From assembly GCA_000002445.1 (NCBI GenBank), contig CM000208.1, positions 768,001 to 832,000 on the forward strand: a DNA stretch of 64,000 nucleotides. Reading direction: 5' to 3'. The notes below the pieces were generated by a model. That model did no database searches, was not told where the DNA came from, and was given only the letters and a program-made list of their open reading frames with translations. Both the position numbers and the translations under genes were made by a program. Source of the DNA: Trypanosoma brucei. Taxonomy: Eukaryota. This document shows positions 2 to 26,817 of the stretch, piece after piece; position 1 is the first letter of the stretch, and each line of letters begins with the position of its first letter.

Positions 2-3000
2 GGGGGTGGGAGAGATGAAACCGTGGGTGCGGTTGTTCGTATGTGTGAAAAGGACGTGGAGGAGATCTACTTGCTCCTTCGTATCTGCCTTCAGCTGTCC
101 CTGTACAAACATCACCTAAACGTTTCAGCTCGTATGGCAGACACTTTTGGAGGCACTGGTAATAATACCTTCAAAAGTATTCCCGTACTGGTTTGCCTGA
201 CAATGGCCCGGTGCATGGAAGGAGATAGGCATCTTCCCTTGTGTGTGGAGTGCTTGTGGAATATGCTCGACGTAATCCCCGAGGAGGCTGCAAAGGAAAT
301 ACTCCACCACACCGGAGATGAAAGCGGCGCCCACTTCCAACAGGAAGGAAAAAAACAGAGTGAGTACGCGACCACTAACTCTCCGTTATCCAGATTGTCT
401 GCCACTGAAGCCCTTCTACATTGTCTTTTGCAGTTTCTTGTCTCGGGGCACCGGCTTGAATACCGTGAGCTACGCAATGACATCATTGTGTTGATGCTCA
501 TTGTTCTCCGTACCCATACAGCAGGGCTCAGGCAGCAGGAAGAAACATTGCTGTATAATTCTGAGTTGGAGCACCCAGCCTTACCCCCGGGATCAACTAT
601 CGAGGCTATTACAACCATGGCTAAGACAGTATTCGATCTGGTCTGCGGACCAGAGTTGCAGGTTTTTGGGACAACTGCAGAACTCACACTAGAATCTCCG
701 GAGTTATTCAGGCGGTATCATACTGTGCTCTCCCCCACTACACGAAGAGAAAATTTGCAATTTAAGGTACTTGGTTGGCGCTTTTTGGAAGCCTTTCATG
801 AATGGCAAAACGTCCGGCTCACGTTGGAACTACGTTGCCGCCCACACATGTCACGCACAACGTTGAGCACGCGTGCCCCCGCCCCATCGGGATATGTCTT
901 TGACACAAGCAATACTGTCTTTGATGTGTGCGGTGCCGGATTTGTAGACCTCCTTCTTATGTATGTAGATACGGAGTGCAGTAACGAGCTAGTTCTCGCA
1001 TGGTCAAGAGAAGATTTGCTTACTCTACAGGAGGAGTCATGGAGGGTTATTTTGGCCATGGTTGAGCCCCACGCAGAGCATTCTGTCACTAAGGCCTTTG
1101 AGGGTGTTGGTGCGGATCACACATGGCAAAATGGAAAGGAGGTTAATTTGTTTAGCGGAAACCCCGGTGGAGGTTTGTGGGTTGAGGGTGTTGGGGAAGA
1201 ATGGCCGTTGTTGCAGGCAGATTTGGCCTTTGTTGGAACCAACGGTATCGCATGCGCCATGCGTTACATCCAAGAAACGTGTAACGGCGACACAGAAATG
1301 ATAGGGTACTTAGCAATTCACGTGCTGTCGGTACTCAGTCGCTTTCCCATCCATCGCGAAGCGCTACTCGCCTTGCGGACTCCGGCGCCAACCACAGGTG
1401 AGCCCGTGCCTTTGTTACTCGCGACGACAGTTCAGGTGATTCAGCGGCTGTTTAATCAAGTTGAAAACAGCGCGAAAATAAATAGTAACTCCAACGGGAC
1501 ACGGGGTATGCCAAAGCCCGACGGAATATCAAGGGCAGAATCAGTGCAGCATGTCGTGAGGGATGCCACTGTCTCTAAGGGCAATTATGGGAGCAGCGTG
1601 CGGTGGCAAAAAGACTCAGAGGGAAGGAAGAAAACGCTTAAGGAGTCACAAAGTGTGCAAACGCGACCTGTTCATAAGGGGTCTAGTTTGTTTGCCTTTT
1701 CGAATGCAGGGTGTTCAAGTACACAGAGAACCTACGGCATGTTACAACTCTCAAATACCCATGTATACTTTCCCGCGCAGACAATCAGTGTTTTTCTAAA
1801 GTGTCTTTCGCTATTACACAACGTTGCCGATGGAAGTAGGGATGAGGTGGTCGCAACGCAGAGGGCCTTCATACTAATGGATGGCATAACCCACATTTTG
1901 AGGCTAGTGTGGAACTCACTCACGCCATCGACATCAAACTCGAAGTTTTCTCGATTTCAAGTTGAAGAGAGAAATAAGGAGTTGCTCGCCGCCGCGCTAA
2001 ATTGTGTTCGGGTGTTCCTTATTGGAAATGAGGCGGGTCAAGCCCAGTTTGTCCGTGGAGACGGTGTGAACACGTTACTAACTGTCATTGAGGCCCATTT
2101 GGGGGAAGATTCAGGCCAACTCTTCGATACTGTGGAAGGTGGCCATCCCCCTGCTTTACATCTCACGTTGACCATTTTAGCAGACTTGTTGCGTGAGAAC
2201 GCGGAAGCCCGCGATGCGTTCTTAAAGTGGTTTAACTACACTTCACAAGTAGTGGAAAAAGCAGACGATGGGAAAGTGAATGCTGTGCAGTTGCTGCTCC
2301 GCTTGTGGAATGAAGGTGCTCCTAGCAGTGAAACTCATGACGGTTCACAGCGGGTGGAATCAGGATGCGATGTTTCTTCAGTTGCGACGACTGTGGGTCG
2401 CGAACCGAGGTTACGGAAGCGAGATTTCGATTATCTAAAAATCTCAACAACCTCCACTACACTTACGAAAACATACGATGTGTGTGATGAAGATATCGAT
2501 GATGCTTCGGCTGGACGACCCGCCGTTGCGACCGAGTTACGTCCGAGTTCGTGGGGGCTAAATTCACTTGGTTTGCAGGGTCGTGAGCTTGTCACTGCAG
2601 CTCTGTGGAGGAGATACGCCGATCTGGAGCGGATGGATCGATTCAACACTGAGGCAAGCTCATCTGGGGAGCTTGCTTCTCCGAGAGGTTTCCGGGAACT
2701 GCTTTCAGCGCCCATATGCAAAGTGCTGGGGTTACGCGTAGGTGTGTACGCCTGTTTGGCTGCACTTGGATTCGAGCGCATTTCGGAAGTGAAGGCAAGT
2801 CCCAGTGAGCGGGTGAAGTTGCTACACATTGCTGCTCTAGAGGCATTGTGTAAAGATGAAGTGTGGGGCGCGATTGCGGAATCTGTTGACTTGGCCGGTC
2901 GTGTGGTAATACGCGCAGAGAAGAGGCCATGTACAAGTACTATGGGTTCCTTCTATGGAGGAAAACATCGAAATTCCGTCAGTTTTAGGAATTCCACTTT

Positions 3001-3493
3001 GTTAGTTCCCATCATACCTGACGCCGATAAACTCGTGAGTGTACTGGCGGACGTCGACACACGCGCACGGGAGATGAAACGCTTTGAAGCGGTGACATTG
3101 GATATGCAAGGCGTGCACAATTTCGAAGACCTACATCGCTCTTTACTTGCATTTGTGCGACACGACGACAAGGTCCCTGCTTGCACAATTGCTGAGCAGT
3201 TTAGGAATGGGTGCAAAAAGGCAAGCGCGGTGCGCTTAATCTCCCCTCCCTTAACTGTTCATACGGGAAGTGAAGGTGCCGAAGCTATGAACGATCTGGT
3301 CACCATCGACCAGTATCCCACTTTGTCGGGAAACAATGCTCCAACAACACCAATGGGAAGCTGGCGTCCGTACCTTACCATGCCTACGGGATTTTCCGAG
3401 AAGAAAAGGAAGAAAGAAGCTATGATAAAGAACAGCTTCAAGAGCAGCAAGGCACAATGTAAGAAGTCAATGACGTCTACATGTCACATGTAA
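2..3493 (+). CDS. Large hypothetical protein, 5'-truncated by the window edge. The frame is open from base 2, and the track's M at 23 is a GTG codon.
   Basis: Uninterrupted ORF of more than 1,150 codons, same strand as its neighbours, with a protein-like composition. I recognise no diagnostic motif. Confidence 0.55.
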   Translation, partial: GGGRDETVGAVVRMCEKDVEEIYLLLRICLQLSLYKHHLNVSARMADTFGGTGNNTFKSIPVLVCLTMARCMEGDRHLPLCVECLWNMLDVIPEEAAKEILHHTGDESGAHFQQEGKKQSEYATTNSPLSRLSATEALLHCLLQFLVSGHRLEYRELRNDIIVLMLIVLRTHTAGLRQQEETLLYNSELEHPALPPGSTIEAITTMAKTVFDLVCGPELQVFGTTAELTLESPELFRRYHTVLSPTTRRENLQFKVLGWRFLEAFHEWQNVRLTLELRCRPHMSRTTLSTRAPAPSGYVFDTSNTVFDVCGAGFVDLLLMYVDTECSNELVLAWSREDLLTLQEESWRVILAMVEPHAEHSVTKAFEGVGADHTWQNGKEVNLFSGNPGGGLWVEGVGEEWPLLQADLAFVGTNGIACAMRYIQETCNGDTEMIGYLAIHVLSVLSRFPIHREALLALRTPAPTTGEPVPLLLATTVQVIQRLFNQVENSAKINSNSNGTRGMPKPDGISRAESVQHVVRDATVSKGNYGSSVRWQKDSEGRKKTLKESQSVQTRPVHKGSSLFAFSNAGCSSTQRTYGMLQLSNTHVYFPAQTISVFLKCLSLLHNVADGSRDEVVATQRAFILMDGITHILRLVWNSLTPSTSNSKFSRFQVEERNKELLAAALNCVRVFLIGNEAGQAQFVRGDGVNTLLTVIEAHLGEDSGQLFDTVEGGHPPALHLTLTILADLLRENAEARDAFLKWFNYTSQVVEKADDGKVNAVQLLLRLWNEGAPSSETHDGSQRVESGCDVSSVATTVGREPRLRKRDFDYLKISTTSTTLTKTYDVCDEDIDDASAGRPAVATELRPSSWGLNSLGLQGRELVTAALWRRYADLERMDRFNTEASSSGELASPRGFRELLSAPICKVLGLRVGVYACLAALGFERISEVKASPSERVKLLHIAALEALCKDEVWGAIAESVDLAGRVVIRAEKRPCTSTMGSFYGGKHRNSVSFRNSTLLVPIIPDADKLVSVLADVDTRAREMKRFEAVTLDMQGVHNFEDLHRSLLAFVRHDDKVPACTIAEQFRNGCKKASAVRLISPPLTVHTGSEGAEAMNDLVTIDQYPTLSGNNAPTTPMGSWRPYLTMPTGFSEKKRKKEAMIKNSFKSSKAQCKKSMTSTCHM

Positions 3494-3964
3494 ATATCTA
3501 ACTATCTATATATTATAAAATTATTGTATGAGATCAAACAATAGATGATCCATCTACAGCGTCGCCTTGATATCGCAGCAGTTTCCACATGTAGATCCGG
3601 AAACGAAGGGGGATGTGGTGCCCCAACGTTTCTCAATATTGTAATACTTTATTTGTAAGCTCTGCAACAGAAGAAGGAGGGAAGAATGACACCGACGTCC
3701 GTCATCAGCCTATTCACCGCTGTACGCCCAGCCTATGCTTCACTTTCTGGATATCAGAAGGTGTTTGTTCTGCATAATTTTTTTTGAAATCCTCTATTGA
3801 TTCTTTTGTGTTATCTAAACTCTTTTCTGTTCATTTCGGATATTGTGTTTAGAGCATACAAACACGCACATACGCGGTCGTGGTGATTGTTCACTGTGAG
3901 AACTCTTTTTAGGAAGGGGGGCAAGTAGAAACGAGCGTGGTGAGCCCCGGTGGTAGACGCCTGT

Positions 3965-6271
3965 ATGAGGTTATGGAATAGATTCTCTCGTCTTGGAAAC
4001 CTTTTGTGTGCGTGTGCTGCATGTGGTTGTTCGTTTACACCATGGCGTTGTTCATCGTCTCCATTATTATCGTCTTTCAGTGCATACAACATGAGTAGTG
4101 GGAACAGGGTGACGAGCTCTGTGGGCGGCAGCAGCGGTGCAACTGAGGTATGTCCTTCACATACACCTTTATCGTCTTCGACATTACTCAGATATACCAT
4201 TGCACCATCAGAACCAACTATGGGCTCGCCTTGGCAAACCAGTGAGGAAAGTGCTTCTCGTCGACTGGCTGCTCTCACATCCTACCCACCATCTAACATT
4301 CGCAACGTCGCCGTTGTGGCACACGTAGACCACGGGAAGACAACATTAAGTGATGTTTTGCTCAGGCGAACCGGCGTGCTAAAGGGCTCTGTCAACGCAG
4401 GAGCTTATACTGATAGGCTGCTTGTTGAGCGGGAGCGCGGCATCACAGTGAAGTCACAAACATGTTCCATGTTTCTGAAGTACGGCGGCTCAGAGTTCTT
4501 GCTCAACTTGATTGACACGCCAGGTCATGTGGATTTCCAGTATGAAGTGTCACGTAGTGTGCGAGCGGCACAGGCTGTGCTTCTGCTCGTTGATGTGGCA
4601 CAGGGGATTGAGGCGCAAACGATGTCCCATTTCCACATGGCATTGGATCAAGGATTGGCCATAATCCCCGTTTTCACCAAAATGGATTGCGTGCTCAACG
4701 ACACAACGGTTGATGCTGCGCTACAACAACTCGAAGACTCCACAGGTCTACTGCGAAGTGAAGTGGTCTTTACCAGTGCAAAGGAGCAACTGGGGGTGGA
4801 GGCACTGTTGCAAGCTATCATTGAGCGCGTGCCTTCACCAAGTGGTGCAATAGGGCTGTCGGACGTGTGCCAACTTCCTCCTCTTTTACCAGGCAGCACA
4901 GCCCGCGTGGCAATGGAGGCTGAGATGGTGCCACTGCGAGCCATCTTACTTGACTCGTGGACGAGGGAATGCGGTGGTGGACTCTATCGTCCGCCCTCAA
5001 AAACGAGCAGCGCCTTAAGCGGGAATGTAAAGATCGATGAAGATAAGGACACCGTCACATGTCTCGTATCTGTCATTGATGGAACTCTCACCGCGCGTAC
5101 TAACATACTGCTGTATCATTCACAGAAACGCTACGAAGCTCGAGAAGTTGGAGTAATACATCCCGAACTTCGGCCCACTGGTGCCCTAACTGTTGGAATG
5201 GTTGGCTACGTTGTGTTTACTCGCGTCCAGCGCGAGGACTTTTCGGTTGGAGAAACACTTTACACACTTCCCACGCGAAAGTTCACGCGGGGAGGCATAG
5301 CACCTGTTCCCGGCTTCAGGCGCGTGCACCCTGTTGTGTTTGCGGGGTTTTACCCAGACGAGGGAGAATACGTTACACAGTTGCGTGAAGCGGTGGAGAA
5401 GCTTCGAATGAATGATCCTGCTGTTACCGTTGAACCCCTCGAGTGCCAGGCACTTGGCTCTGGCCTACAGTTGGGTTTTCTCGGTGTGTTGCATATGCAA
5501 ATCTTTCAGGAACGCCTACTCTCCGAATTCGGGCAGCGTGTTCTCGTAACGCCACCTGTTGTTCAGTACAAGTACCGCGAAGCTGCCGGTGGCGATGACC
5601 AGCCGCCCAAACCCCTCTCGGTCCACACGTGGCGGTGGCTCCACGAGGGAGTGTCATGTTACATGGAACCTCACGTTACTGCCACAGTAGTCACACCGAG
5701 TGAGTATGCACAAATCATCGATGGCGAAGCGCAGAGGCACTATCGCGGGAAGCAGTTGGATATGCGAGTGATGGATGATGCCCGTGTCCTCCTGCGCTAC
5801 AAAATGCCCCTCGCGGATATGGTGCGGGGTTTCTTTACTTTTGTGAAGAGTCAGTCCCACGGCTATGCGTCACTGGAGTACGATGAACTGGTGTATGAAG
5901 AAGCGGATTTGGTACGCGTAGACATCGTGGTGCAGAAGGCCCGTATCTCTGCGCTTGCCGTTATCTGTCCACGACACGAGGCACCATCGGTAGGAAAGCG
6001 TATAGTAGCGAGCCTAAAGTCCAATCTCACACGCACTGCTGTGGACATCCCCCTACAGGCACTAGTTGGGAGCAAGGTAGTTGCGAGGGAAACGGTTAGG
6101 GCGTACCGCAAGGATGTGACAGCAAAAATACACGCGGGTGACATCTCACGCAAACAGAAAAAGTGGAACGACCAGAAAAAGGGGAAGGAACGCATGGCGC
6201 GGCGCACGGTTGGAGGCGTAACACTTGATCAGTCGGTCCTCGCCGCAGCAATGGGTGCCACTGCATTGTGA
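3965..6271 (+). CDS. GUF1: Translation factor GUF1 (LepA/EF4 family GTPase), probably mitochondrial.
   Basis: Contains G1 '[12 protein letters not shown]', G3 'DTPGHVDF' and the LepA C-terminal domain. The track ORF begins at a GTG (3950), so I use the first in-frame ATG at 3965. Upstream of the GTPase core is an S/R-rich extension ([12 protein letters not shown]...) that looks like a presequence. The precise start is uncertain. Confidence 0.85.
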
Positions 6272-7229: not shown

Positions 7230-7577
7230 ATGCTGCCCCTCCGTGTACTACCATTCATCGCTGCAGGCGGTTACGCCTCCCAATTACGCTTCTACAGCGA
7301 GGGGAAGCCAACTGAAGGACACAGAAAGATCAACCTGGACGATGATGAGAGGTGGATCGAGGCGGAGTTCGACGAAAAACTTCGGTCTCCAGAAGAACGA
7401 TATGCACTCGAACGACAGCGCGAGACAATGAAGGGACTCATCAAGAAAATACGCAACGAACACAAACAGCACATGCACGAATCTGTACGCGAGAGGGACG
7501 CTCAAATTGACAACCTCAAAGAGCAAATACAGACAATGGAAAAGAAACTACAGCAGTTAACGAACGAGAAGCAATAG
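7230..7577 (+). CDS. IF1: Mitochondrial F1-ATPase inhibitor IF1-like protein (115 aa).
   Basis: ATG start. The N-terminus (MLPLRVLPFIAAGG...) resembles a presequence. The C-terminal half is a coiled coil with 'EERYALERQRE...HKQHMHE...' that parallels the 'EEERYFRARAKEQ...HHENEISHH' region of bovine IF1. The size matches IF1 proteins. Confidence 0.5.
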   Translation: MLPLRVLPFIAAGGYASQLRFYSEGKPTEGHRKINLDDDERWIEAEFDEKLRSPEERYALERQRETMKGLIKKIRNEHKQHMHESVRERDAQIDNLKEQIQTMEKKLQQLTNEKQ

Positions 7578-7628: not shown

Positions 7629-7652
7629 TAAAACCGCCATTATATATATATA
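7629..7652. repeat. (TA)12 microsatellite.
   Basis: Direct reading of the sequence. It lies in the IF1 3' flank, just upstream of repeat copy A. Confidence 0.9.
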
Positions 7653-7719
7653 TATATATATAAGCAACGAGCGTAACGTTTTTTCTTTAGCTAAAATGGT
7701 CTCAATTTCCTATAAAACG

Positions 7720-7740
7720 TTTCTTTTTTTTTTTTCACCT
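7720..7740 (+). promoter_or_regulatory. Polypyrimidine tract, a putative trans-splicing and polyadenylation signal between IF1 and repeat copy A.
   Basis: 'ttcttttttttttttcacctcc' contains a T12 run. Kinetoplastid SL trans-splice acceptor sites lie just downstream of such tracts. This is an inference, and no AG acceptor has been mapped. Confidence 0.3.
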
Positions 7741-7759
7741 CCAAAATATTATCACTACT

Positions 7760-8893
7760 GTGACAAATCATGAAAACTGCTATTATTGTTATTTTTTATT
7801 TATTACTTCTTCATTTCCACTCAAAATAATATTTTTTCATGCACTTTCCATCAGTTGCAACCCTTCCTCACCATGTCACACCAAAACGGCCACCACTCCA
7901 ACAAGGTTTTCTATTCGGGTCACTGTGGAACTACGAATCCGACACAACTGGGGCAGCACGTGGCAGGACCAAGTGAAAGGCAACGCGTGCATTGAAACAG
8001 TGCTTGATGTGGGCCTCTTGATATTTGTCTGCAGAGTTTTGTCTTTGTTCACACTTCGGTGGTGTTGCCTTCATGTGCATGTTCCCCGCATTTGTTACTT
8101 ACTCTCGTCTATTGCCTCTCTTTGGTTTTTAACAATAAGGCAATATCATCAAATACTGTGCAGGGATGGACATAAAAAGGAAACTGAATTTGACCTCGTT
8201 GGGGTGTGGGTTTCATTTGAGAGGGACTGTAGAAGTCTCTCGGTAAGTCAAGGTTGGATCGCACTGCTACGGTACTACCTGCAAGTAACGGAACTCATCC
8301 TGTGCAACCTGCAGAAGGATAAAGAAATTTGGGATAATGCCCACACGTTGTTAAATACTGCATTTACTTTTGTGCAGCTGCGGGAGTACTATGAGTCGAG
8401 ACATAGAAGTGACGAAGGTGCACTCGCTGCTGATATACGAAAGTTCTGCCGGAACAACCTAAACAATTTGGTTCCTAATATACGACGGCTCTCACAGTCC
8501 TTTCCATCCGCACAGGATAGCACGGAGGTTAGGAAGCTGTCCCAACGAGTTGAGTGGAGAGACCTTCTACACAAACTCCCAGAGTCAATTAATTCTGTGT
8601 ATTTTGAAGCAGAAGTGAGGGAAGCCAAGGAGTTTGCCAAAAGGGGCGTCGAGGGCAGTGAAAAGGCTCGGGCAGAGTCATTGAAGAAGCATCTCGAACA
8701 AATTGACAATATGTCGACCGAGGACACTTTGAGGAATATCAATAAAACCATCAACCTCTCTGGTGGGTGCTGGTATAAATGCCCTAAAAGACACCTTTAT
8801 GTTGTCGGAGAGTGTGGCAGCCCTGCAGGGGAAGGAATAGGTGGGGTGGGCCACATCTCATTCCCTGGCAATACATCTGTTGGGAGGTTTTAG
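7760..8893 (+). CDS. Hypothetical protein with a C-terminal RZ-finger-like motif (copy A); start unresolved.
   Basis: The ORF opens at a GTG, and there is no in-frame ATG for about 950 nt. The first 160 codons are C/W/L/R-rich and look like translated UTR. From about 8315 onward the sequence is protein-like, ending 'CWYKCPKRHLYVVGECGSPAGEGIGGVGH'. That resembles the RZ zinc finger of ZNFX1/RNF213 ('CPNGH.Y.IG.CG...IGG..H') but lacks the internal CxxC pair. It is duplicated at 24081..25136. Confidence 0.4.
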   Translation: MTNHENCYYCYFLFITSSFPLKIIFFHALSISCNPSSPCHTKTATTPTRFSIRVTVELRIRHNWGSTWQDQVKGNACIETVLDVGLLIFVCRVLSLFTLRWCCLHVHVPRICYLLSSIASLWFLTIRQYHQILCRDGHKKETEFDLVGVWVSFERDCRSLSVSQGWIALLRYYLQVTELILCNLQKDKEIWDNAHTLLNTAFTFVQLREYYESRHRSDEGALAADIRKFCRNNLNNLVPNIRRLSQSFPSAQDSTEVRKLSQRVEWRDLLHKLPESINSVYFEAEVREAKEFAKRGVEGSEKARAESLKKHLEQIDNMSTEDTLRNINKTINLSGGCWYKCPKRHLYVVGECGSPAGEGIGGVGHISFPGNTSVGRF

Positions 8894-10574
8894 GAACCGG
8901 GAGGGTGTCATAGTGGACGAACTATTTCCTGTTGTAATGATAAGTGGAATGGAATATAATGTAATATGTGATGATGTGAAGTATGGAGCATAATTTGAAT
9001 GGAACTAATGATGGAATGGGGTTTTTGTGGATAGGAGTGCATCTCCTGTTGATCATGCAATCCATATCCCTTAATGAGGGCACAGCACTCCTTATTAGTA
9101 CTTTTACTTTTACTTTGCTTTTGCTTTTTCTTTTTTTGCTTTTGCTTTTGCTTGTTCTGTGAATGCTATCATTGGGTGTCTTATGCCCTTGCTTCTGTCG
9201 TTTGGCTGCTTTTGTTACTTTGTCAGCCACTTACTATATTACCATCCTTTACCTTAATTCTACCTCTCTTGCACACATACCACAACTGGGATACTAAAAG
9301 GGGGGTTATTGAACGGTAACAAACAAAATAACTCGTGCTCTGATTAATTGCATCGCAACGTGGTGGTTTCGAGATGTTCCATCCCCAATTGGTGGCGGGT
9401 GGTGCCAATCGCGCTGCACCGGCAGAGGAGCTACGCGACACAGCCGAGACGGTGCAGATATCGTCTTTGGCATTGCTCAAAATGCTGATGCACGGGCGCG
9501 CTGGGGTGCCGCTCGAGGTAATGGGTTTGATGATTGGTGAGTTGATTGACGACTATACGGTCCGTGTATCTGATGTCTTCTCCATGCCTCAAACGGCCAC
9601 GGGTCAATCCGTTGAAGCTGTGGACCCAGAGTATCAAGTTCATATGTTAGACAAACTCTCCGTGGTGGGTCGACCGGAAAAAGTTGTTGGGTGGTACCAC
9701 AGTCACCCTGGTTTCGGCTGCTGGCTTTCTGGTGAGGATGTAATGACGGCGAGCAGCTATGAGCAACTGACGCCGCGCAGCGTGTCGGTAGTGATCGACC
9801 CTATCCAATCGGTCCGCGGCAAAGTAGTAATTGACGCCTTCCGCACCACGAAGGACCCGCATACGGGGCCGCGAATCATGTTCCAAGAGCCACGACAGAC
9901 AACAAGCAACATCGGGTGGCTGACGCGACCTTCTCCTATTGCTCTCACCCGTGGGTTGGATCGTGACTATTACAGTCTTCCCATTACCTTCCGCAAGAAA
10001 AACCACGAACTTGCGCTACTCCTCAACGTCTACAAGAAGGGTTGGCAGGAGGGTTTCCGATTAGAAAACATGACACGTTTTGATCGCAATACGGTGCGAG
10101 AGAAGATGCGTGCGCTGGCGTCGCTTGCCGTCCAGTCGGAGCGATTCATTGTTCAGGGTCTCGATGAAGATGATGTAGGCAATGTCGGTCGAGCAAATCC
10201 CATTGCGCATCTCCAATCCGAATCGGAGGGCCTAATCAACGCGAGTCTTAACCAATCCATAGGAGCGATGATTAATGGGGTTGTCTTCTGAGGAAACAGG
10301 GTACATTGCGTGTGCTCCAGCTATTACTGACCATACTTTTTATATGCGCTACCGTATTGATTTTTTATCACCCTCTCTATAACGTTTACGGGGTGTTATG
10401 CTCCTTTTCTGCACTCCCGTTTCTGTGACAATGTGGCGTGATTACAATCAGCACAGGATGGCATTTGCTAGTGATGTGGTGTCATCTTCGTGAATGGCAT
10501 GTCATTTGTTTGTGGTGGGGTAATTACTCGTCCTGAATTTCCTAGTGATTCTACAAACATATCTCTGCAATACC
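7845..10574 (+). repeat. Segmental direct repeat, copy A (2,730 bp: RZ-like gene, RPN11 and its 3' flank).
   Basis: Aligns base-for-base with 24088..26817 at a constant offset of 16,243 bp. I saw about 6 mismatches over the unit. The left boundary lies next to a T12 run and a (TA)12 microsatellite. The right boundary is about 35 bp upstream of the next ORF. Confidence 0.9.
9374..10291 (+). CDS. RPN11: 26S proteasome regulatory subunit RPN11 (PSMD14), a JAMM/MPN+ metalloisopeptidase (copy A).
   Basis: ATG start. Contains the JAMM motif 'GWYHSHPGFGCWLSGEDV'. Shows PSMD14-like blocks along its length ('VIDPIQSVRGKVVIDAFR', 'EPRQTTSNIGWLTRPS'). Confidence 0.9.
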   Translation: MFHPQLVAGGANRAAPAEELRDTAETVQISSLALLKMLMHGRAGVPLEVMGLMIGELIDDYTVRVSDVFSMPQTATGQSVEAVDPEYQVHMLDKLSVVGRPEKVVGWYHSHPGFGCWLSGEDVMTASSYEQLTPRSVSVVIDPIQSVRGKVVIDAFRTTKDPHTGPRIMFQEPRQTTSNIGWLTRPSPIALTRGLDRDYYSLPITFRKKNHELALLLNVYKKGWQEGFRLENMTRFDRNTVREKMRALASLAVQSERFIVQGLDEDDVGNVGRANPIAHLQSESEGLINASLNQSIGAMINGVVF

Positions 10575-10749
10575 TCACTTCCATATTCCTTTAATTGCTC
10601 TAATCCCGGTGATTGCTCGTTGCGATCCCAGTGTCGTGTGCCCAACGCACTTAGTGACACTCAGGACAAGTGGTGAAGGGGGCGAAAAGCTTTTATTCTA
10701 CCGTCTCCGATTGGGTGAAGCAGGGTATCGAAACTATCGTCTACTGCAT

Positions 10750-13700
10750 ATGTATGCAATGCCCGGTAATAGTGGTGATCTACAGTGTGATGATGGTAAG
10801 AAAAGACATATACCGCCATTGTCACTGTTGCTGTCGGGCTACGGGAGCAGTGAAGGCAGGGAACTGGACACATCGTATACACCAAAGCAGTGGCTGTGGT
10901 TCCTCTATGTGACATCATGGGCTCGACCGTTTTTTACTTATGCATCATCTGGTGGTGCGTCCGAAGCGACGGAGGGCAGCAGTGATAACAGAAGTGGGAG
11001 CGCATATTGGGGCAGGTTATCATTTGACGAGCTGTTGAAGTTGTCGGGGTCCCCCATTCCTCCCGCCATGGTGTCGCTTTGGATGGGGCTTTGCATGCCG
11101 ACAGATGACGTCGTGCAAGAGCTGCGAATAATGACGGAGGGGAAGGCAGAAGGTCGGCAGCGCATATATCCTTTCCTGCCTCGTGTTGCAGAGTCAACAT
11201 TTGGTCGTGCTCTGCGATCGTTGGCCGTGCGACAGCATATATCCTCCTGGATGCCTTCTCATGCCGGTGACGTGTGTGCCGCCCTTGACGTTCTGGTGCG
11301 AGACACACTTGAAGTTATTCAGAACTCTGCCGATGTGCGGAAGACTGCGAGAGTACGGTGTGAGGAAAGAGATGCGTCAGGGGAGGAAGCACTTGAGGGG
11401 GCTTTCCGGAGCATGCTTTCTGCATCTACTACCGCACCGAAGGTGGTGGAAGCGACAACTTACCGTCCTCTGTTCGATGTGAAGGCATCCATACCCGAGG
11501 GTGGAACTGCGCAAGTCCTTATCAGGGTGGCTAATGCTGCACGTTTGTTTGCCGCCCTTTCGGTGGAGGCATTTGGTCGTGTCAAATCTGAATGCGCCGT
11601 CCTACTTCTTGCTCATATCAATCAGCGCGATGCACCAGAGCATGTGGATGCCCGTGCGTACGGTGTGGTGACTGGCGTTGTGGAGTATGCTATGGCTTAT
11701 CGGTATTGCAGGGATGATGGTACGGGACGGTGCCCACTGACGTGCGCTGCTTTGCTGTTGCATCGTCTCGTTGAGCTGCAGGGAATTGTGGAAAAGGATA
11801 CTGCTGCTGGTGACAGGTGTATGGGGATGGCTGTATCAGCTTCTCGGTTCGCAAACATGACTGTGGCGTGTATACAGGAACTGCTCTTCTGTGTGGTGGC
11901 AGGTGATACAGTAAGGTGGCACAGGGAACACCAGCCCGATGGTGTCTCTGTCTGTCCCACCGCTGCACGTACCTTAACGCTGCATGAAACAGATTGTCTA
12001 CTACAAGTCTTCATCCCGGCACTGCTCCAGCAGGTGGGGTTTGAGTGGCCCTGGTCAGAGTCACTCCGGCATGCCAAGATGCTTGATCGGGCACGAACGC
12101 AACATATTGTGATGGAAGATGGTGTCAGGTTGGATAGCCGATCGGTGTTTGAGGAGCTTTTGGTCTCAGTTGCGCGACGAACGTACGGACTGCGCCTTCG
12201 AGCCATTCTCCCTCAGAGCTTCGACGTCATTGCGGAAAATATTTTTGTTTCGATCCACGATGTGCCGAATGAGGGTAAAAGCAGTGGAGGGAATCCTGAG
12301 AAGGTGGCTGATAATTCGTCTTCTCGCTTCGCACTACCTCTGTATTACCGTACTGCCGGTGAGGTCTTGCTAGAATATTTTGATCGCTGCGGTCCAAGTG
12401 GAATAACAGCGGAGGAAACAGAGCGGGTGTTGAGACGGGCCACCGATGTGCAGCCTATGGTTGTGCAATTGCAGGCACTGGGAGGGGACACAAACGGTGG
12501 CATTACTGATTGTGTCAGCTACTGTGGTGAGCTTTCTCGCACAGTATATTTTTCCGCGCGTGAGAAGGAGCGTTTACTGCAGAGGTACCGCTGTGAAGTG
12601 CTGCTGGCCTCCCTCGTGGTGTACACGCAACTGAGAACGGTGAGTGTCGTGCAACAGCTCACGCGGCAACTCGCCCCATTGTTTGAGCAGCTGCTTCTGC
12701 CGCTTGCGCATGAGCGTACCCTCAGTCGTTGTCCTGTGATTGCATCCAGGAAGGGGGACGGGGTTGATGACAACGGCACACCGTTGGTGGACTTAACACC
12801 GGAATTCAAGATGCTGGTAGACGAAATTCATTATGAGTTCTACCCTCTGGAATGGGTACCCGAAGCCGTTGATGCCCATATTCGGCAAGAGTGTGGTGTC
12901 CGGGAAAAAGAAGGAGCACCGTACCACGAAGGCGGGAATGGTCCCCCCTGTTTTGCCCAATACTCTCTATTTGCAGCTATTGCTCATCAGTTTGGCCTCG
13001 TTCTGGAGGGGAACCCGCGTGGATTCCGTGGTGGCGACGGCAGCAGCAGTGAAGTACGCACGAAGGCATACCGTTTCTTCACACTGATGTTGCTCAACAA
13101 TCTCGGGGATGCAGTATCTTCCTCATGTGAGTTAGATGGGGCTGCAGCGCTGGCCGCAACGCGGCGTGTTAAGGATTGTCAGGACGGTAGCGAAAATTGT
13201 AAACAACGGCAAGCGGCTGTGAGGCAACGCGGCGGCGCATCGTTTCACAGTGTGGTGAGCGCGTGCGATGTTGTGGTTACTATGACACAGTGCTTACTTC
13301 CCGCACACTTATCATCACACCCACGTATGGCAACCACTGGTTCTATGAGCAACGAGTGGATGCGCCGGGTTGGGGAGTGGACACGATCGGCGTACTCGAA
13401 GTACACCGCGTATCAGCAGCAGGTGCATGGTTTGGATCTTCCTGTGCCGCTCATCTCTCTCTATAATAGTCTCACCTTTGACTCCGTTCCCCTTGCTCGT
13501 GAAACCATCCGCGCCGTACGGAGCCGCCTCCTTGAGAAGATGAGTGTGGTGACTGCGTCGCCGCCAGGGGATGTAGAAACTGCGGGTAAACAGCTCCTGG
13601 AGCAGCACCTTTCCAGCCTAACCGTAACACTCACAGCTGTTGGGCTTCTGCCGCTCTGTGTGCGTGGGGGAAGCCATGTACCCTGCGCAACTCAACTATT

Positions 13701-13764
13701 GTGGGCATCCCCATTTTTCTCCCACGAACTGCTGCACTGCGGTCGATACGAAGTAAGTGTATAG
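10750..13764 (+). CDS. Large hypothetical protein (about 1,000 aa).
   Basis: Long ORF with protein-like composition throughout. The track start 10609 is a GTG, so I use the first in-frame ATG at 10750 (MYAMPGNSGD...). No recognisable domain. Confidence 0.55.
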   Translation: MYAMPGNSGDLQCDDGKKRHIPPLSLLLSGYGSSEGRELDTSYTPKQWLWFLYVTSWARPFFTYASSGGASEATEGSSDNRSGSAYWGRLSFDELLKLSGSPIPPAMVSLWMGLCMPTDDVVQELRIMTEGKAEGRQRIYPFLPRVAESTFGRALRSLAVRQHISSWMPSHAGDVCAALDVLVRDTLEVIQNSADVRKTARVRCEERDASGEEALEGAFRSMLSASTTAPKVVEATTYRPLFDVKASIPEGGTAQVLIRVANAARLFAALSVEAFGRVKSECAVLLLAHINQRDAPEHVDARAYGVVTGVVEYAMAYRYCRDDGTGRCPLTCAALLLHRLVELQGIVEKDTAAGDRCMGMAVSASRFANMTVACIQELLFCVVAGDTVRWHREHQPDGVSVCPTAARTLTLHETDCLLQVFIPALLQQVGFEWPWSESLRHAKMLDRARTQHIVMEDGVRLDSRSVFEELLVSVARRTYGLRLRAILPQSFDVIAENIFVSIHDVPNEGKSSGGNPEKVADNSSSRFALPLYYRTAGEVLLEYFDRCGPSGITAEETERVLRRATDVQPMVVQLQALGGDTNGGITDCVSYCGELSRTVYFSAREKERLLQRYRCEVLLASLVVYTQLRTVSVVQQLTRQLAPLFEQLLLPLAHERTLSRCPVIASRKGDGVDDNGTPLVDLTPEFKMLVDEIHYEFYPLEWVPEAVDAHIRQECGVREKEGAPYHEGGNGPPCFAQYSLFAAIAHQFGLVLEGNPRGFRGGDGSSSEVRTKAYRFFTLMLLNNLGDAVSSSCELDGAAALAATRRVKDCQDGSENCKQRQAAVRQRGGASFHSVVSACDVVVTMTQCLLPAHLSSHPRMATTGSMSNEWMRRVGEWTRSAYSKYTAYQQQVHGLDLPVPLISLYNSLTFDSVPLARETIRAVRSRLLEKMSVVTASPPGDVETAGKQLLEQHLSSLTVTLTAVGLLPLCVRGGSHVPCATQLLWASPFFSHELLHCGRYEVSV

Positions 13765-24080: not shown

Positions 24081-25136
24081 GTGTCATTTTCCATCAGTTG
24101 CAACCCTTCCTCACCATGTCACACCAAAACGGCCACCACTCCAACAAGGTTTTCTATTCGGGTCACTGTGGAACTACGAATCCGACACAACTGGGGCAGC
24201 ACGTGGCAGGACCAAGTGAAAGGCAACGCGTGCATTGAAACAGTGCTTGATGTGGGCCTCTTGATATTTGTCTGCAGAGTTTTGTCTTTGTTCACACTTC
24301 GGTGGTGTTGCCTTCATGTGCATGTTCCCCGCATTTGTTACTTACTCTCGTCTATTGCCTCTCTTTGGTTTTTAACAATAAGGCAATATCATCAAATACT
24401 GTGCAGGGATGGACATAAAAAGGAAACTGAATTTGACCTCGTTGGGGTGTGGGTTTCATTTGAGAGGGACTGTAGAAGTCTCTCGGTAAGTCAAGGTTGG
24501 ATCGCACTGCTACGGTACTACCTGCAAGTAACGGAACTCATCCTGTGCAACCTGCAGAAGGATAAAGAAATTTGGGATAATGCCCACACGTTGTTAAATA
24601 CTGCATTTACTTTTGTGCAGCTGCGGGAGTACTATGAGTCGAGACATAGAAGTGACGAAGGTGCACTCGCTGCTGATATACGAAAGTTCTGCCGGAACAA
24701 CCTAAACAATTTGGTTCCTAATATACGACGGCTCTCACAGTCCTTTCCATCCGCACAGGATAGCACGGAGGTTAGGAAGCTGTCCCAACGAGTTGAGTGG
24801 AGAGACCTTCTACACAAACTCCCAGAGTCAATTAATTCTGTGTATTTTGAAGCAGAAGTGAGGGAAACCAAGGAGTTTGCCAAAAGGGGCGTCGAGGGCA
24901 GTGAAAAGGCTCGGGCAGAGTCATTGAAGAAGCATCTCGAACAAATTGACAATATGTCGACCGAGGACACTTTGAGGAATATCAATAAAACCATCAACTT
25001 CTCTGGTGGGTGCTGGTATAAATGCCCTAAAAGACACTTTTATGTTGTCGGAGAGTGTGGCAGCCCTGCAGGGGAAGGAATAGGTGGGGTGGGCCACATC
25101 TCATTCCCTGGCAATACATCTGTTGGGAGGTTTTAG
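24081..25136 (+). CDS. Hypothetical protein with a C-terminal RZ-finger-like motif (copy B of 7760..8893); start unresolved.
   Basis: Near-identical to copy A over the shared region, with 3 nucleotide differences that are all nonsynonymous (A to T, L to F, L to F). The ORF again opens on a GTG that lies outside the repeat, so the N-terminus differs from copy A. This supports the view that the 5' portion is not translated as drawn. Confidence 0.4.
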   Translation: MSFSISCNPSSPCHTKTATTPTRFSIRVTVELRIRHNWGSTWQDQVKGNACIETVLDVGLLIFVCRVLSLFTLRWCCLHVHVPRICYLLSSIASLWFLTIRQYHQILCRDGHKKETEFDLVGVWVSFERDCRSLSVSQGWIALLRYYLQVTELILCNLQKDKEIWDNAHTLLNTAFTFVQLREYYESRHRSDEGALAADIRKFCRNNLNNLVPNIRRLSQSFPSAQDSTEVRKLSQRVEWRDLLHKLPESINSVYFEAEVRETKEFAKRGVEGSEKARAESLKKHLEQIDNMSTEDTLRNINKTINFSGGCWYKCPKRHFYVVGECGSPAGEGIGGVGHISFPGNTSVGRF

Positions 25137-26817
25137 GAACCGGGAGGGTGTCATAGTGGACGAACTATTTCCTGTTGTAATGATAAGTGGAATGGAATAT
25201 AATGTAATATGTGATGATGTGAAGTATGGAGCATAATTTGAATGGAACTAATGATGGAATGGGGTTTTTGTGGATAGGAGTGCATCTCCTGTTGATCATG
25301 CAATCCATATCCCTTAATGAGGGCACAGCACTCCTTATTAGTACTTTTACTTTTACTTTGCTTTTGCTTTTTCTTTTTTTGCTTTTGCTTTTGCTTGTTC
25401 TGTGAATGCTATCATTGGGTGTCTTATGCCCTTGCTTCTGTCGTTTGGCTGCTTTTGTTACTTTGTCAGCCACTTACTATATTACCATCCTTTACCTTAA
25501 TTCTACCTCTCTTGCACACATACCACAACTGGGATACTAAAAGGGGGGTTATTGAACGGTAACAAACAAAATAACTCGTGCTCTGATTAATTGCATCGCA
25601 ACGTGGTGGTTTCGAGATGTTCCATCCCCAATTGGTGGCGGGTGGTGCCAATCGCGCTGCACCGGCAGAGGAGCTACGCGACACAGCCGAGACGGTGCAG
25701 ATATCGTCTTTGGCATTGCTCAAAATGCTGATGCACGGGCGCGCTGGGGTGCCGCTCGAGGTAATGGGTTTGATGATTGGTGAGTTGATTGACGACTATA
25801 CGGTCCGTGTATCTGATGTCTTCTCCATGCCTCAAACGGCCACGGGTCAATCCGTTGAAGCTGTGGACCCAGAGTATCAAGTTCATATGTTAGACAAACT
25901 CTCCGTGGTGGGTCGACCGGAAAAAGTTGTTGGGTGGTACCACAGTCACCCTGGTTTCGGCTGCTGGCTTTCTGGTGAGGATGTAATGACGGCGAGCAGC
26001 TATGAGCAACTGACGCCGCGCAGCGTGTCGGTAGTGATCGACCCTATCCAATCGGTCCGCGGCAAAGTAGTAATTGACGCCTTCCGCACCACGAAGGACC
26101 CGCATACGGGGCCGCGAATCATGTTCCAAGAGCCACGACAGACAACAAGCAACATCGGGTGGCTGACGCGACCTTCTCCTATTGCTCTCACCCGTGGGTT
26201 GGATCGTGACTATTACAGTCTTCCCATTACCTTCCGCAAGAAAAACCACGAACTTGCGCTACTCCTCAACGTCTACAAGAAGGGTTGGCAGGAGGGTTTC
26301 CGATTAGAAAACATGACACGTTTTGACCGCAATACGGTGCGAGAGAAGATGCGTGCGCTGGCGTCGCTTGCCGTCCAGTCGGAGCGATTCATTGTTCAGG
26401 GTCTCGATGAAGATGATGTAGGCAATGTCGGTCGAGCAAATCCCATTGCGCATCTCCAATCCGAATCGGAGGGCCTAATCAACGCGAGTCTTAACCAATC
26501 CATAGGAGCGATGATTAATGGGGTTGTCTTCTGAGGAAACAGGGTACATTGCGTGTGCTCCAGCTATTACTGACCATACTTTTTATATGCGCTACCGTGT
26601 TGATTTTTTATCACCCTCTCTATAACGTTTACGGGGTGTTATGCTCCTTTTCTGCACTCCCGTTTCTGTGACAATGTGGCGTGATTACAATCAGCGCAGG
26701 ATGGCATTTGCTAGTGATGTGGTGTCATCTTCGTGAATGGCATGTCATTTGTTTGTGGTGGGGTAATTACTCGTCCTGAATTTCCTAGTGATTCTACAAA
26801 CATATCTCTGCAATACC
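24088..26817 (+). repeat. Segmental direct repeat, copy B.
   Basis: See copy A. The flanks are unique on both sides (the 3' UTR of the 21475..23796 gene on the left, an AT-rich spacer on the right). Confidence 0.9.
25617..26534 (+). CDS. RPN11: 26S proteasome regulatory subunit RPN11 (copy B).
   Basis: Protein identical to copy A (305 aa). I saw one synonymous nucleotide difference (gatcgc versus gaccgc), and the JAMM motif is intact. Confidence 0.9.
   Translation: MFHPQLVAGGANRAAPAEELRDTAETVQISSLALLKMLMHGRAGVPLEVMGLMIGELIDDYTVRVSDVFSMPQTATGQSVEAVDPEYQVHMLDKLSVVGRPEKVVGWYHSHPGFGCWLSGEDVMTASSYEQLTPRSVSVVIDPIQSVRGKVVIDAFRTTKDPHTGPRIMFQEPRQTTSNIGWLTRPSPIALTRGLDRDYYSLPITFRKKNHELALLLNVYKKGWQEGFRLENMTRFDRNTVREKMRALASLAVQSERFIVQGLDEDDVGNVGRANPIAHLQSESEGLINASLNQSIGAMINGVVF

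What the first reader, a model, noticed from the sequence alone, without database searches (positions are those of the whole stretch)
7760..8893. Duplicated gene ends in an RZ-finger-like motif but has no in-frame ATG for about 950 nt
The C-terminus 'CWYKCPKRHLYVVGECGSPAGEGIGGVGH' looks like the RZ zinc finger of ZNFX1/RNF213 (the E3-active RZ domain) with the internal CxxC pair deleted. That is an unusual, possibly degenerate, variant. Both copies' ORFs open on GTG codons with different N-termini, because the copy-B GTG lies outside the repeat. The first roughly 480 nt translate to UTR-like C/W/R-rich text. Either translation starts far downstream, the gene is a pseudogene, or the mRNA is processed unusually. 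The RZ assignment rests on my recollection of the consensus.
Basis: partly seen in the sequence, partly recalled or inferred. Interest (0 to 1): 0.55.

Follow-up and report, generated by a model that had tools for sequence, protein, structure and literature searches.

The report
Dead remnant of ZNFX1-like gene
The ORF is the leftover last 240 codons of a large ZNFX1-type helicase/ubiquitin-ligase gene that Trypanosoma brucei has otherwise deleted; the leftover was later copied along with the neighbouring proteasome gene RPN11, and it is a decaying pseudogene rather than an unusual gene.

Summary
The ORF at 7760-8893 has no in-frame ATG before 8711. It lies in a 2733-bp direct duplication (7842-10574 = 24085-26817, 99.7% identical). 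Its end matches Pfam ZnF_RZ-type just above the curated cut-off, but only the first half of the profile.

It is not a gene. Only 8174-8890 (and 24417-25133 in copy B) is homologous to anything. That stretch matches the last ~243 residues of a 2095-aa SF1-helicase/Cys-rich/RZ protein of T. grayi and of its T. congolense orthologue.

In T. grayi the full gene sits exactly where copy B sits, between the orthologue of the 773-aa gene and RPN11. T. brucei therefore deleted about 1850 codons in situ. The stump and RPN11 were then duplicated 16 kb upstream to give copy A.

An exact 8-codon deletion removes the CPEC pair, two of the four zinc ligands of the RZ finger. Among T. brucei-group genomes, 12 of 13 substitutions in the stump are non-synonymous. 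T. b. gambiense carries GAG->TAG in both copies. Neighbouring real genes show 47 synonymous to 31 non-synonymous changes (Fisher p = 5e-4).

The branch to T. brucei shows no extra amino-acid change and the frame is still open, so the loss is probably recent. Interest is low to moderate: an ordinary unitary pseudogene that records lineage-specific loss of a ZNFX1-like gene.

The parts
7760..8893 (+). Mechanical ORF of copy A: 377 codons, GTG 'start', stop at 8891-8893. Only the last ~240 codons derive from a gene.
8174..8890 (+). Relic A, homologous to the last ~243 residues of the ZNFX1-like helicase/RZ protein. It is about 48-52% identical to T. congolense CCD15604.1 and 35-37% identical to T. 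grayi KEG15635.1.
   Evidence: HMMER; tblastn; alignment
7842..8173 (+). Duplicated sequence upstream of the relic with no detectable homology to the helicase gene in any frame. The relic's frame stays open here. T. equiperdum has TGA at 8161.
8762..8836 (+). Half RZ finger (GGCWYKCPKRHLYVVGECGSPAGEG), matching Pfam PF20173 profile positions 8-32 of 54. It keeps Zn ligands 1 (Cys) and 2 (His) and the catalytic-loop Cys.
8827..8828 (+). Junction of the in-frame 24-nt (8-codon) deletion. T. congolense has GTAAGTGGAAGGTGTCCAGAGTGT (VSGRCPEC) here. The deletion removes Zn ligands 3 and 4.
8630..8630 (+). Site of a GAG->TAG nonsense variant upstream of the RZ motif. It is present in both copies of GCA_000210295.1 and in Logan contig ERR7929156_5272.
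8711..8893 (+). Only ATG-initiated in-frame ORF (60 codons). It is open in all genomes examined, and all 3 substitutions within it are non-synonymous.
7842..10574 (+). Segmental duplicate, copy A (derived). It contains the relic and RPN11 and was inserted between the 115-aa gene and CBP110.
24085..26817 (+). Segmental duplicate, copy B, at the ancestral syntenic position.
24417..25133 (+). Relic B, lying within the mechanical ORF 24081-25136. It differs from relic A by 3 substitutions, all non-synonymous.
9374..10291 (+). RPN11 copy A (JAB/MPN proteasome lid subunit), the functional passenger of the duplication.
25617..26534 (+). RPN11 copy B, with a protein identical to copy A.
9299..9300 (+). 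AG trans-splice acceptor of RPN11 (equivalent to 25542-25543 in copy B). An RNA-derived contig joins the spliced-leader 3' end to window 9300/9301, which is 408 nt downstream of the relic's stop.

Best explanation
The ORF is a unitary pseudogene fragment. The ancestor of African trypanosomes carried a gene of about 2100 codons for a ZNFX1-type protein. That protein had an SF1 helicase core, a Cys-rich finger array and a C-terminal RZ finger, and the gene lay immediately upstream of RPN11. In the T. brucei lineage a deletion of about 5.5 kb removed the start codon, the helicase and the Cys-rich fingers. Only the last ~240 codons remain (24417-25133). A further 24-nt in-frame deletion removed the CPEC zinc ligands of the RZ finger. 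A 2.7-kb segment holding this stump and RPN11 was then duplicated 16 kb upstream, giving copy A at 7842-10574. The two copies are kept alike by gene conversion. The stump has no ATG and no constraint on its codons. It is most likely only transcribed passively as part of the polycistron, as 3'UTR or intergenic RNA upstream of the RPN11 splice site, and is not translated into a functional protein. Shown here: the homology, the synteny, the deletions, the substitution pattern and the nonsense allele. Inferred: the order of events, the recency of the loss and the absence of translation.
For: 1. An exhaustive HMMER search of 1.84 billion representative proteins found only two real relatives, both matching by their C-termini: P0002 (T. 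congolense, query residues 7-241 against 493-731 of 732) and P0003 (T. grayi, against 1847-2054 of 2095). Source names are confirmed.
2. P0003 carries AAA_11/AAA_12 helicase domains and a full RZ finger of 79 bits. P0002 has a full RZ finger of 69.7 bits. The relic scores 27-29 bits and matches half the profile.
3. tblastn finds nothing else of the protein anywhere in the 64-kb window.
4. Synteny: T. grayi has 1362-aa gene / 862-aa gene / ZNFX1-like / RPN11 / 135-aa gene. The window has 1301-aa / 773-aa / relic B / RPN11 / 136-aa, with tblastn identities of 35%, 41%, 35%, 88% and 59%.
5. An exact 8-residue gap removes CPEC, corresponding to 24 nt at the DNA level. In mouse RNF213 the equivalent Cys4471 and Cys4474, together with Cys4451 and His4455, bind zinc, and mutating any of them abolishes E3 activity (bioRxiv 10.1101/2021.05.10.443411).
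6. Population pattern: 13 variable sites in 717 nt, 12 of them non-synonymous including one nonsense, and 1 synonymous. Four neighbouring genes show 47 synonymous to 31 non-synonymous changes (Fisher p = 5e-4). The neutral expectation is 22-28% synonymous and about 4% stop-creating.
7. Variable-site density is 1.8% in the relic, against 0.5-1.1% in flanking coding sequences of the same four genomes.
8. No + strand gene is called at this place in three NCBI assemblies.
9. The RPN11 mRNA 5' end maps to 9301, downstream of the relic.
Against: The frame is still open over 240 homologous codons in the window strain. It also runs 114 further codons upstream, where the other two frames have 3-4 stops.

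A relative-rate test with T. grayi as outgroup shows no acceleration on the T. brucei branch: 21 T. brucei-specific against 19 T. congolense-specific amino-acid changes. Either the inactivation is recent, or the fragment was constrained for most of its history.

A 60-codon ATG-initiated ORF (8711-8893) that retains the catalytic-loop Cys is intact in every genome examined.

There are no direct data here on translation or on mature transcript ends. The sample is small: 13 substitutions from about 5 related genomes, and the copies are not independent because of gene conversion.
Confidence: 0.9

Rival explanations
1. The fragment is a functional small gene. On this view it encodes a truncated C-terminal protein or a 60-aa peptide starting at ATG 8711, with a degenerate zinc-free RZ loop that keeps the nucleophilic Cys. 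It would be retained, and even duplicated, because it is useful.
For: The frame is open over 240 or more codons in the window strain. There is no rate acceleration relative to T. congolense. The 60-codon ORF is intact in all 8 sequences and still scores 34 bits against PF20173. The fragment is present in two copies.
Against: There is no ATG for the long form. A nonsense allele sits in both copies of the T. b. gambiense assembly (GCA_000210295.1), and T. equiperdum has a second stop upstream. The ratio of 12 non-synonymous to 1 synonymous change fits neutral evolution, and all 3 changes within the 60-codon ORF are non-synonymous. Two of the four Zn ligands are deleted, and single-ligand mutants of RNF213 are already inactive. 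The duplication is explained by the adjacent RPN11.
Confidence: 0.05
2. The fragment is an ectopic partial copy, by segmental or retro-duplication, of a full-length ZNFX1-like gene that still exists elsewhere in the T. brucei genome.
For: The fragment is demonstrably mobile within the locus, since copy A is a secondary copy. The rest of the T. brucei genome could not be scanned directly with these tools.
Against: Relic B lies exactly at the orthologous position of the intact T. grayi gene, between the same neighbours. The exhaustive HMMER search returned no T. brucei full-length protein with this C-terminal domain. It returned only the relic ORF itself, T. congolense and T. grayi.
Confidence: 0.03
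3. The apparent truncation and duplication are assembly artefacts. On this view, collapsed or misjoined repeats hide an intact gene.
For: The copies are near-identical (99.7%). The T. congolense orthologue is itself split by a contig end.
Against: Both copies appear with the same junctions in independent assemblies GCA_003543875.1 and GCA_000210295.1. Copy A appears in GCA_001457755.2. An RNA-derived Logan contig spans the 773-aa gene and relic B contiguously. The flanks differ cleanly at both ends.
Confidence: 0.02

Closest known systems
ZNFX1 / NFX1-type zinc-finger-containing protein 1 family (SF1 helicase + NFX1-type Cys-rich fingers + C-terminal RZ finger); nearest members are T. grayi KEG15635.1 (2095 aa) and T. 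congolense CCD15604.1
   Same: The relic is orthologous by position to the T. grayi gene. It aligns colinearly with the last ~243 residues of both proteins, including the pre-RZ helical region, the WYKCP..H..GECG half of the finger and the IGG..H/GN..G.F tail. The stop codon falls within one residue of the T. congolense stop. The top non-trypanosome relatives of the T. grayi protein are animal ZNFX1 proteins.
   Different: The window has no helicase core, no Cys-rich finger array and no start codon. The second zinc-binding pair is deleted. The sequence evolves without codon constraint and carries a nonsense allele in one subspecies.
RZ finger of RNF213 (the E3 active-site zinc finger; Pfam PF20173)
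   Same: The local motif is the same. phmmer aligns WYKCPKRHLYVVGECGSPAGEG with RNF213 WYTCPRGHPCSVGECGRPMQES. The Cys, the His and the catalytic Cys are in register with mouse Cys4451, His4455 and Cys4462.
   Different: The equivalents of Cys4471 and Cys4474 are missing, so the CHCC zinc site cannot form. There is no RNF213-like AAA or E3 module. The similarity to RNF213 is limited to the finger (E about 1 for the whole protein).
Unitary (in-situ) pseudogenes in trypanosomatid polycistronic units
   Same: It is a truncated, start-less remnant at the ancestral locus. It is probably transcribed passively, evolves neutrally and carries polymorphic disabling mutations.
   Different: Here the remnant was co-duplicated with an essential neighbour (RPN11), and the two copies are homogenised by gene conversion. 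As a result the disabling mutations are shared between copies.

Membership tests
Pfam ZnF_RZ-type (PF20173) / RZ finger | Profile match at or above the curated gathering score | tested here: met
   Copy A scores 28.8 bits and copy B 27.3 bits, against a cut-off of 27. Only profile positions 8-32 of 54 are matched. The intact orthologues score 79 and 69.7 bits over positions 8-53/54.
Pfam ZnF_RZ-type (PF20173) / RZ finger | Complete CHCC zinc-ligand set (mouse RNF213 Cys4451, His4455, Cys4471, Cys4474) | tested here: not met
   The first Cys and the His are present. The CxxC pair is removed by an exact 8-codon deletion relative to T. congolense, T. grayi and an animal ZNFX1-like protein.
Pfam ZnF_RZ-type (PF20173) / RZ finger | Conserved non-ligand catalytic Cys in the loop (mouse Cys4462, the 'GECG' motif) | tested here: met
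   GECG is retained in both copies, in register with RNF213.
Pfam ZnF_RZ-type (PF20173) / RZ finger | Zinc binding and transthiolation E3 activity | not testable with these tools
   This needs biochemistry. Loss of activity is predicted from the RNF213 ligand mutants.
ZNFX1-type helicase (functional member) | SF1 helicase core (AAA_11/AAA_12) | tested here: not met
   The core is present in T. grayi P0003. tblastn finds no trace of it in the window.
ZNFX1-type helicase (functional member) | Cys-rich NFX1-type finger array between the helicase and the C-terminal domain | tested here: not met
   P0002 residues 1-~330 and P0003 residues ~1290-1640 are Cys-rich. They have no match in the window.
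ZNFX1-type helicase (orthology of the remnant) | Same genomic position as the intact gene in a relative | tested here: met
   In T. grayi locus L011 the gene lies between the h773 orthologue and RPN11, followed by the h136 orthologue. The window has the same order around relic B.
Pseudogene | Loss of the start codon and most of the coding sequence relative to functional orthologues | tested here: met
   Only the last ~243 of 2095 residues are represented. No in-frame ATG occurs before 8711.
Pseudogene | Relaxed selective constraint and disabling mutations | tested here: met
   The relic shows 12 non-synonymous changes (one of them nonsense) to 1 synonymous. Flanking genes show 47 synonymous to 31 non-synonymous (Fisher p = 5e-4). 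The pattern is consistent with the neutral 22-28% synonymous expectation.
Pseudogene | No translated product | not testable with these tools
   This needs ribosome profiling or proteomics.

The most novel reading that the evidence does not exclude
The stump may not be fully dead. The 60-codon ORF from ATG 8711 is intact in every T. brucei-group genome examined. It keeps the RZ catalytic-loop Cys but lacks the second zinc pair. If translated, it would be a small zinc-independent Cys-loop peptide salvaged from a lost ZNFX1-type E3, present in two copies next to the proteasome lid gene RPN11. Alternatively, the relic RNA could have been co-opted as a 3'UTR or processing element for its neighbours.
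Probability: 0.04. Interest if true: 0.55.

Novelty: new member of a known kind. Interest (0 to 1): 0.25.

Why it matters
The result explains an odd-looking ORF as an ordinary pseudogene, so it should not be annotated or pursued as a non-AUG or unusually processed gene.

Its modest positive value is evolutionary. A ZNFX1-type helicase/RZ E3 existed in trypanosomes: it is intact in T. grayi and at least largely present in T. congolense. T. brucei lost it by an in-situ deletion. The loss predates the divergence of the T. brucei-group genomes compared here. It is probably recent relative to the split from T. congolense.

In other eukaryotes ZNFX1-family proteins act in RNA surveillance, antiviral defence and small-RNA pathways (from general knowledge). 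The presence or absence of the gene among trypanosomes may therefore be worth a comparative look.

The locus is also a clean small example of gene conversion homogenising a 2.7-kb duplicate 16 kb apart, pseudogene included.

Tried and rejected
1. Word-indexed protein searches were uninformative about other trypanosomatids.
- The search with the relic found only the relic ORF itself.
- The search with full-length T. grayi P0003 found only itself and animal ZNFX1 proteins.
- The search with the last 330 aa of P0003 found generic RZ proteins and did not even return P0003.
I therefore do not read these as evidence of absence in T. cruzi or Leishmania.

2. I searched for further helicase-gene remnants upstream of 8174 and 24417. 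This covered all frames with a sensitive tblastn, blastn against the T. congolense and T. grayi loci, and Smith-Waterman alignment with shuffles. Nothing exceeded chance.

3. The weak Pfam hits to SPG48, SLS1_N and DegQ are below their cut-offs and were dismissed.

4. The PDB sequence search gave only the RZ stretch of RNF213 at E about 1. It served only for residue register.

5. A literature search for ZNFX1 together with trypanosomes gave no paper on a parasite ZNFX1.

6. I tried to use RNA-derived Logan contigs to fix the mature transcript that carries the relic. Contig L001 spans the 773-aa gene and relic B. However, other contigs of the same series cross known mRNA boundaries: L008 runs from RPN11 into CBP110. 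Contiguity therefore does not prove a single mRNA.

7. No microhomology or repeat explaining the duplication was found at either junction.

8. The ATG at 8166 is out of frame and would open only a 26-codon ORF, as read directly.

Full report
**What is in the sequence**

The window is from the Trypanosoma brucei group (subgenus Trypanozoon).
- It encodes the trypanosome-specific cap-binding subunit CBP110 (Pfam PF19042, 1360 bits).
- Its RPN11 protein is identical to entries named for T. brucei, T. equiperdum and Trypanozoon.

The flagged ORF (7760-8893, + strand, 377 codons) exists as described. The ORF lister opens it on GTG, and its only in-frame Met codon is at 8711. That leaves 951 nt with no ATG.

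A self-comparison of the window shows one 2733-bp direct duplication, 7842-10574 = 24085-26817, at 99.74% identity.
- Each copy carries the 3' 1052 nt of the ORF.
- Each copy also carries a complete RPN11 gene (JAB/MPN; 9374-10291 and 25617-26534) and about 280 nt beyond it.
- Both GTG 'starts' lie outside the repeat. They have no biological standing, because GTG is an allowed start only under the bacterial rule the tool uses.

**The RZ motif**

The C-terminus hits Pfam ZnF_RZ-type (PF20173) at 28.8 bits (copy A) and 27.3 bits (copy B), against a gathering score of 27. Only profile positions 8-32 of 54 are matched. phmmer against PDB sequences aligns WYKCPKRHLYVVGECGSPAGEG with RNF213 WYTCPRGHPCSVGECGRPMQES.

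Ahel et al. (bioRxiv 10.1101/2021.05.10.443411) describe the mouse RNF213 finger:
- Zinc is held by Cys4451, His4455, Cys4471 and Cys4474.
- Cys4462 is the ubiquitin-accepting nucleophile.
- Mutating any zinc ligand abolishes activity.

The window sequence keeps the equivalents of Cys4451, His4455 and Cys4462. It lacks the Cys4471/Cys4474 pair.

**What the ORF is homologous to**

An exhaustive HMMER scan of 1.84 billion representative proteins, using the translation of 8168-8893, found three strong hits:
- the same ORF from another T. brucei-group sample (P0001);
- P0002, 732 aa, 51% identical, with query residues 7-241 aligned to its residues 493-731;
- P0003, 2095 aa, 37% identical, aligned to its residues 1847-2054.

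The remaining hits (E of 1e-5 or weaker) match the RZ finger plus variable lengths of the preceding region.

P0002 is CCD15604.1 of T. congolense IL3000, and P0003 is KEG15635.1 of T. grayi. P0003 has an SF1 helicase core (AAA_11, AAA_12), a long Cys-rich array and a complete RZ finger of 79 bits. P0002 has the Cys-rich array and a complete RZ finger of 69.7 bits.

The P0002 reading frame continues, still homologous to T. grayi, up to the end of its 4.7-kb contig. This is read from the first 105 nt of L010. It is therefore a contig-truncated piece of a larger gene. The nearest non-trypanosome relatives of P0003 are animal ZNFX1 proteins.

Within the window, tblastn with both proteins finds only 8174-8890 and 24417-25133. 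No other piece of the gene is present in any frame.

**Synteny and polarity**

In T. grayi the gene order is: 1362-aa gene, 862-aa gene, ZNFX1-like gene, RPN11, 135-aa gene. The window proteins match that locus in the same order:

| Window feature | Window start | Identity to the T. grayi locus |
|---|---|---|
| 1301-aa gene | 17207 | 35% |
| 773-aa gene | 21475 | 41% |
| relic B | 24417 | 35% |
| RPN11 | 25617 | 88% |
| 136-aa gene | 26940 | 59% |

Copy B therefore sits at the ancestral position of the full gene. Copy A lies between a 115-aa gene and CBP110 and is the derived duplicate. Copy A begins at the same junction as copy B and contains only the stump, so the large deletion preceded the duplication. 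This ordering is an inference.

**Lesions**

1. About 1850 codons, including the start, the helicase and the finger array, are gone.
2. Alignment A2 shows an exact 8-residue gap (T. congolense VSGRCPEC) in both copies. At the DNA level this is a clean 24-nt deletion between CCTGCA and GGGGAAGG, with its junction at 8827/8828.
3. Eight versions of the relic were compared: both window copies, both copies in GCA_003543875.1 and in GCA_000210295.1, copy A in GCA_001457755.2, and a Logan contig.
   - The 717 homologous nt have 13 variable sites. Twelve are non-synonymous and one is synonymous.
   - One of the twelve is GAG->TAG at 8630. It occurs in both GCA_000210295.1 copies and in the Logan contig, and it truncates the frame before the RZ motif.
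   - GCA_001457755.2 has TGC->TGA at 8161, in the upstream non-homologous part.
4. In the same genomes four flanking genes show 47 synonymous to 31 non-synonymous changes, and RPN11 shows 5 to 0.
   - The contrast with the relic is significant (Fisher p = 5e-4).
   - The relic's ratio is compatible with the neutral expectation of 22-28% synonymous and about 4% stop-creating changes.
   - Variable-site density is 1.8% in the relic, against 0.5-1.1% in flanking coding sequences.
5. None of the three NCBI assemblies calls a + strand gene here.

**Timing**

A relative-rate count with T. grayi as outgroup gives 21 T. brucei-specific against 19 T. congolense-specific amino-acid changes over 223 columns. 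There is no excess on the T. brucei branch.

The frame is also still open. About 4.4% of random substitutions would create a stop, so a 717-nt frame is unlikely to survive more than roughly 5-10% neutral divergence.

Together these suggest that constraint was lost late on the T. brucei stem, but before the divergence of the genomes compared here, since all share both deletions and the duplication junctions. This is an inference.

**Transcript context**

One Logan contig (L008) begins with TACTATATTG joined to window 9300/9301, directly after the AG at 9299-9300. From memory, TACTATATTG is the 3' end of the T. brucei spliced leader.

This shows two things:
- That run series is RNA-derived.
- The RPN11 mRNA starts 73 nt upstream of its ATG and 408 nt downstream of the relic's stop.

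The relic is therefore not in the mature RPN11 mRNA. A contig from the same series (L001) runs uninterrupted from the 773-aa gene through relic B to the pyrimidine tract ahead of RPN11. That fits the relic being 3'UTR or intergenic RNA. However, these assemblies also cross known mRNA boundaries, so it is not proof.

**Verdict**

The object is not an unusual gene. It is the twice-copied 3' stump of a ZNFX1-like helicase/E3 gene that T. brucei has lost.

The residual uncertainty is about 5%. It rests on the still-open frame and on the intact 60-codon ATG ORF at 8711-8893, for which there is no sign of constraint (3 of 3 substitutions non-synonymous).

Whether T. cruzi, Leishmania or T. vivax have the gene could not be determined. 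The word-indexed search tool failed to return even the query's own parent protein, so its negative results carry no weight.

Noticed in passing
window 7842-10574 and 24085-26817; loci L002-L006: The two copies of the 2.7-kb duplicate evolve in concert. A-B differences within a genome are 7, 2 and 1 substitutions, against 13-22 between genomes. The junctions are identical in all assemblies. Strain-specific variants, including the gambiense nonsense allele, are shared by both copies. Only the site at 7844/24087, next to the left junction, is copy-specific.
   Followed up: yes
window 9299-9301 (= 25542-25544); L008:1-10: The RPN11 trans-splice acceptor can be read from a public RNA-seq assembly contig that begins with the last 10 nt of the spliced leader. 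Contigs L007 and L009 join unrelated sequence at 9332 and 9299, probably as assembly chimeras at or near splice sites.
   Followed up: partly
window 7844-8173 (= 24087-24416): The relic's reading frame stays open for 110 further codons with no detectable homology to the T. congolense or T. grayi proteins. The other two frames have 3-4 stops over the same stretch. By chance this is roughly P = 0.03. It could be unrecognisable former coding sequence or coincidence.
   Followed up: partly
L010 (T. congolense CAEQ01001963.1) 2305-4736: No RPN11 lies within 2.4 kb downstream of the T. congolense ZNFX1-like gene, whereas the gap is 1.3 kb in T. grayi and 0.5 kb in T. brucei. The gene also runs off the contig's 5' end. 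This may reflect assembly fragmentation or a different local arrangement.
   Followed up: no
window 7640-7663: A (TA)n microsatellite and long T-rich tracts (7680-7830) lie in the spacer between the 115-aa gene and the left junction of copy A. This is a plausible pyrimidine tract for trans-splicing that is specific to copy A and absent upstream of copy B.
   Followed up: no
window 3950-6271, 7230-7577, 10609-13764: The flanking genes are a GUF1/LepA-type GTPase, a conserved 115-aa coiled-coil-like protein without a Pfam match, and CBP110. The ORF lister's GTG starts overextend GUF1 and CBP110 relative to the annotated products of 768 aa and 1004 aa.
   Followed up: partly
(tool behaviour): the search for homologous proteins did not return P0002 when queried with P0003. 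It also did not return P0003 when queried with P0003's own last 330 residues. Its negative results are therefore unreliable for this family.
   Followed up: no
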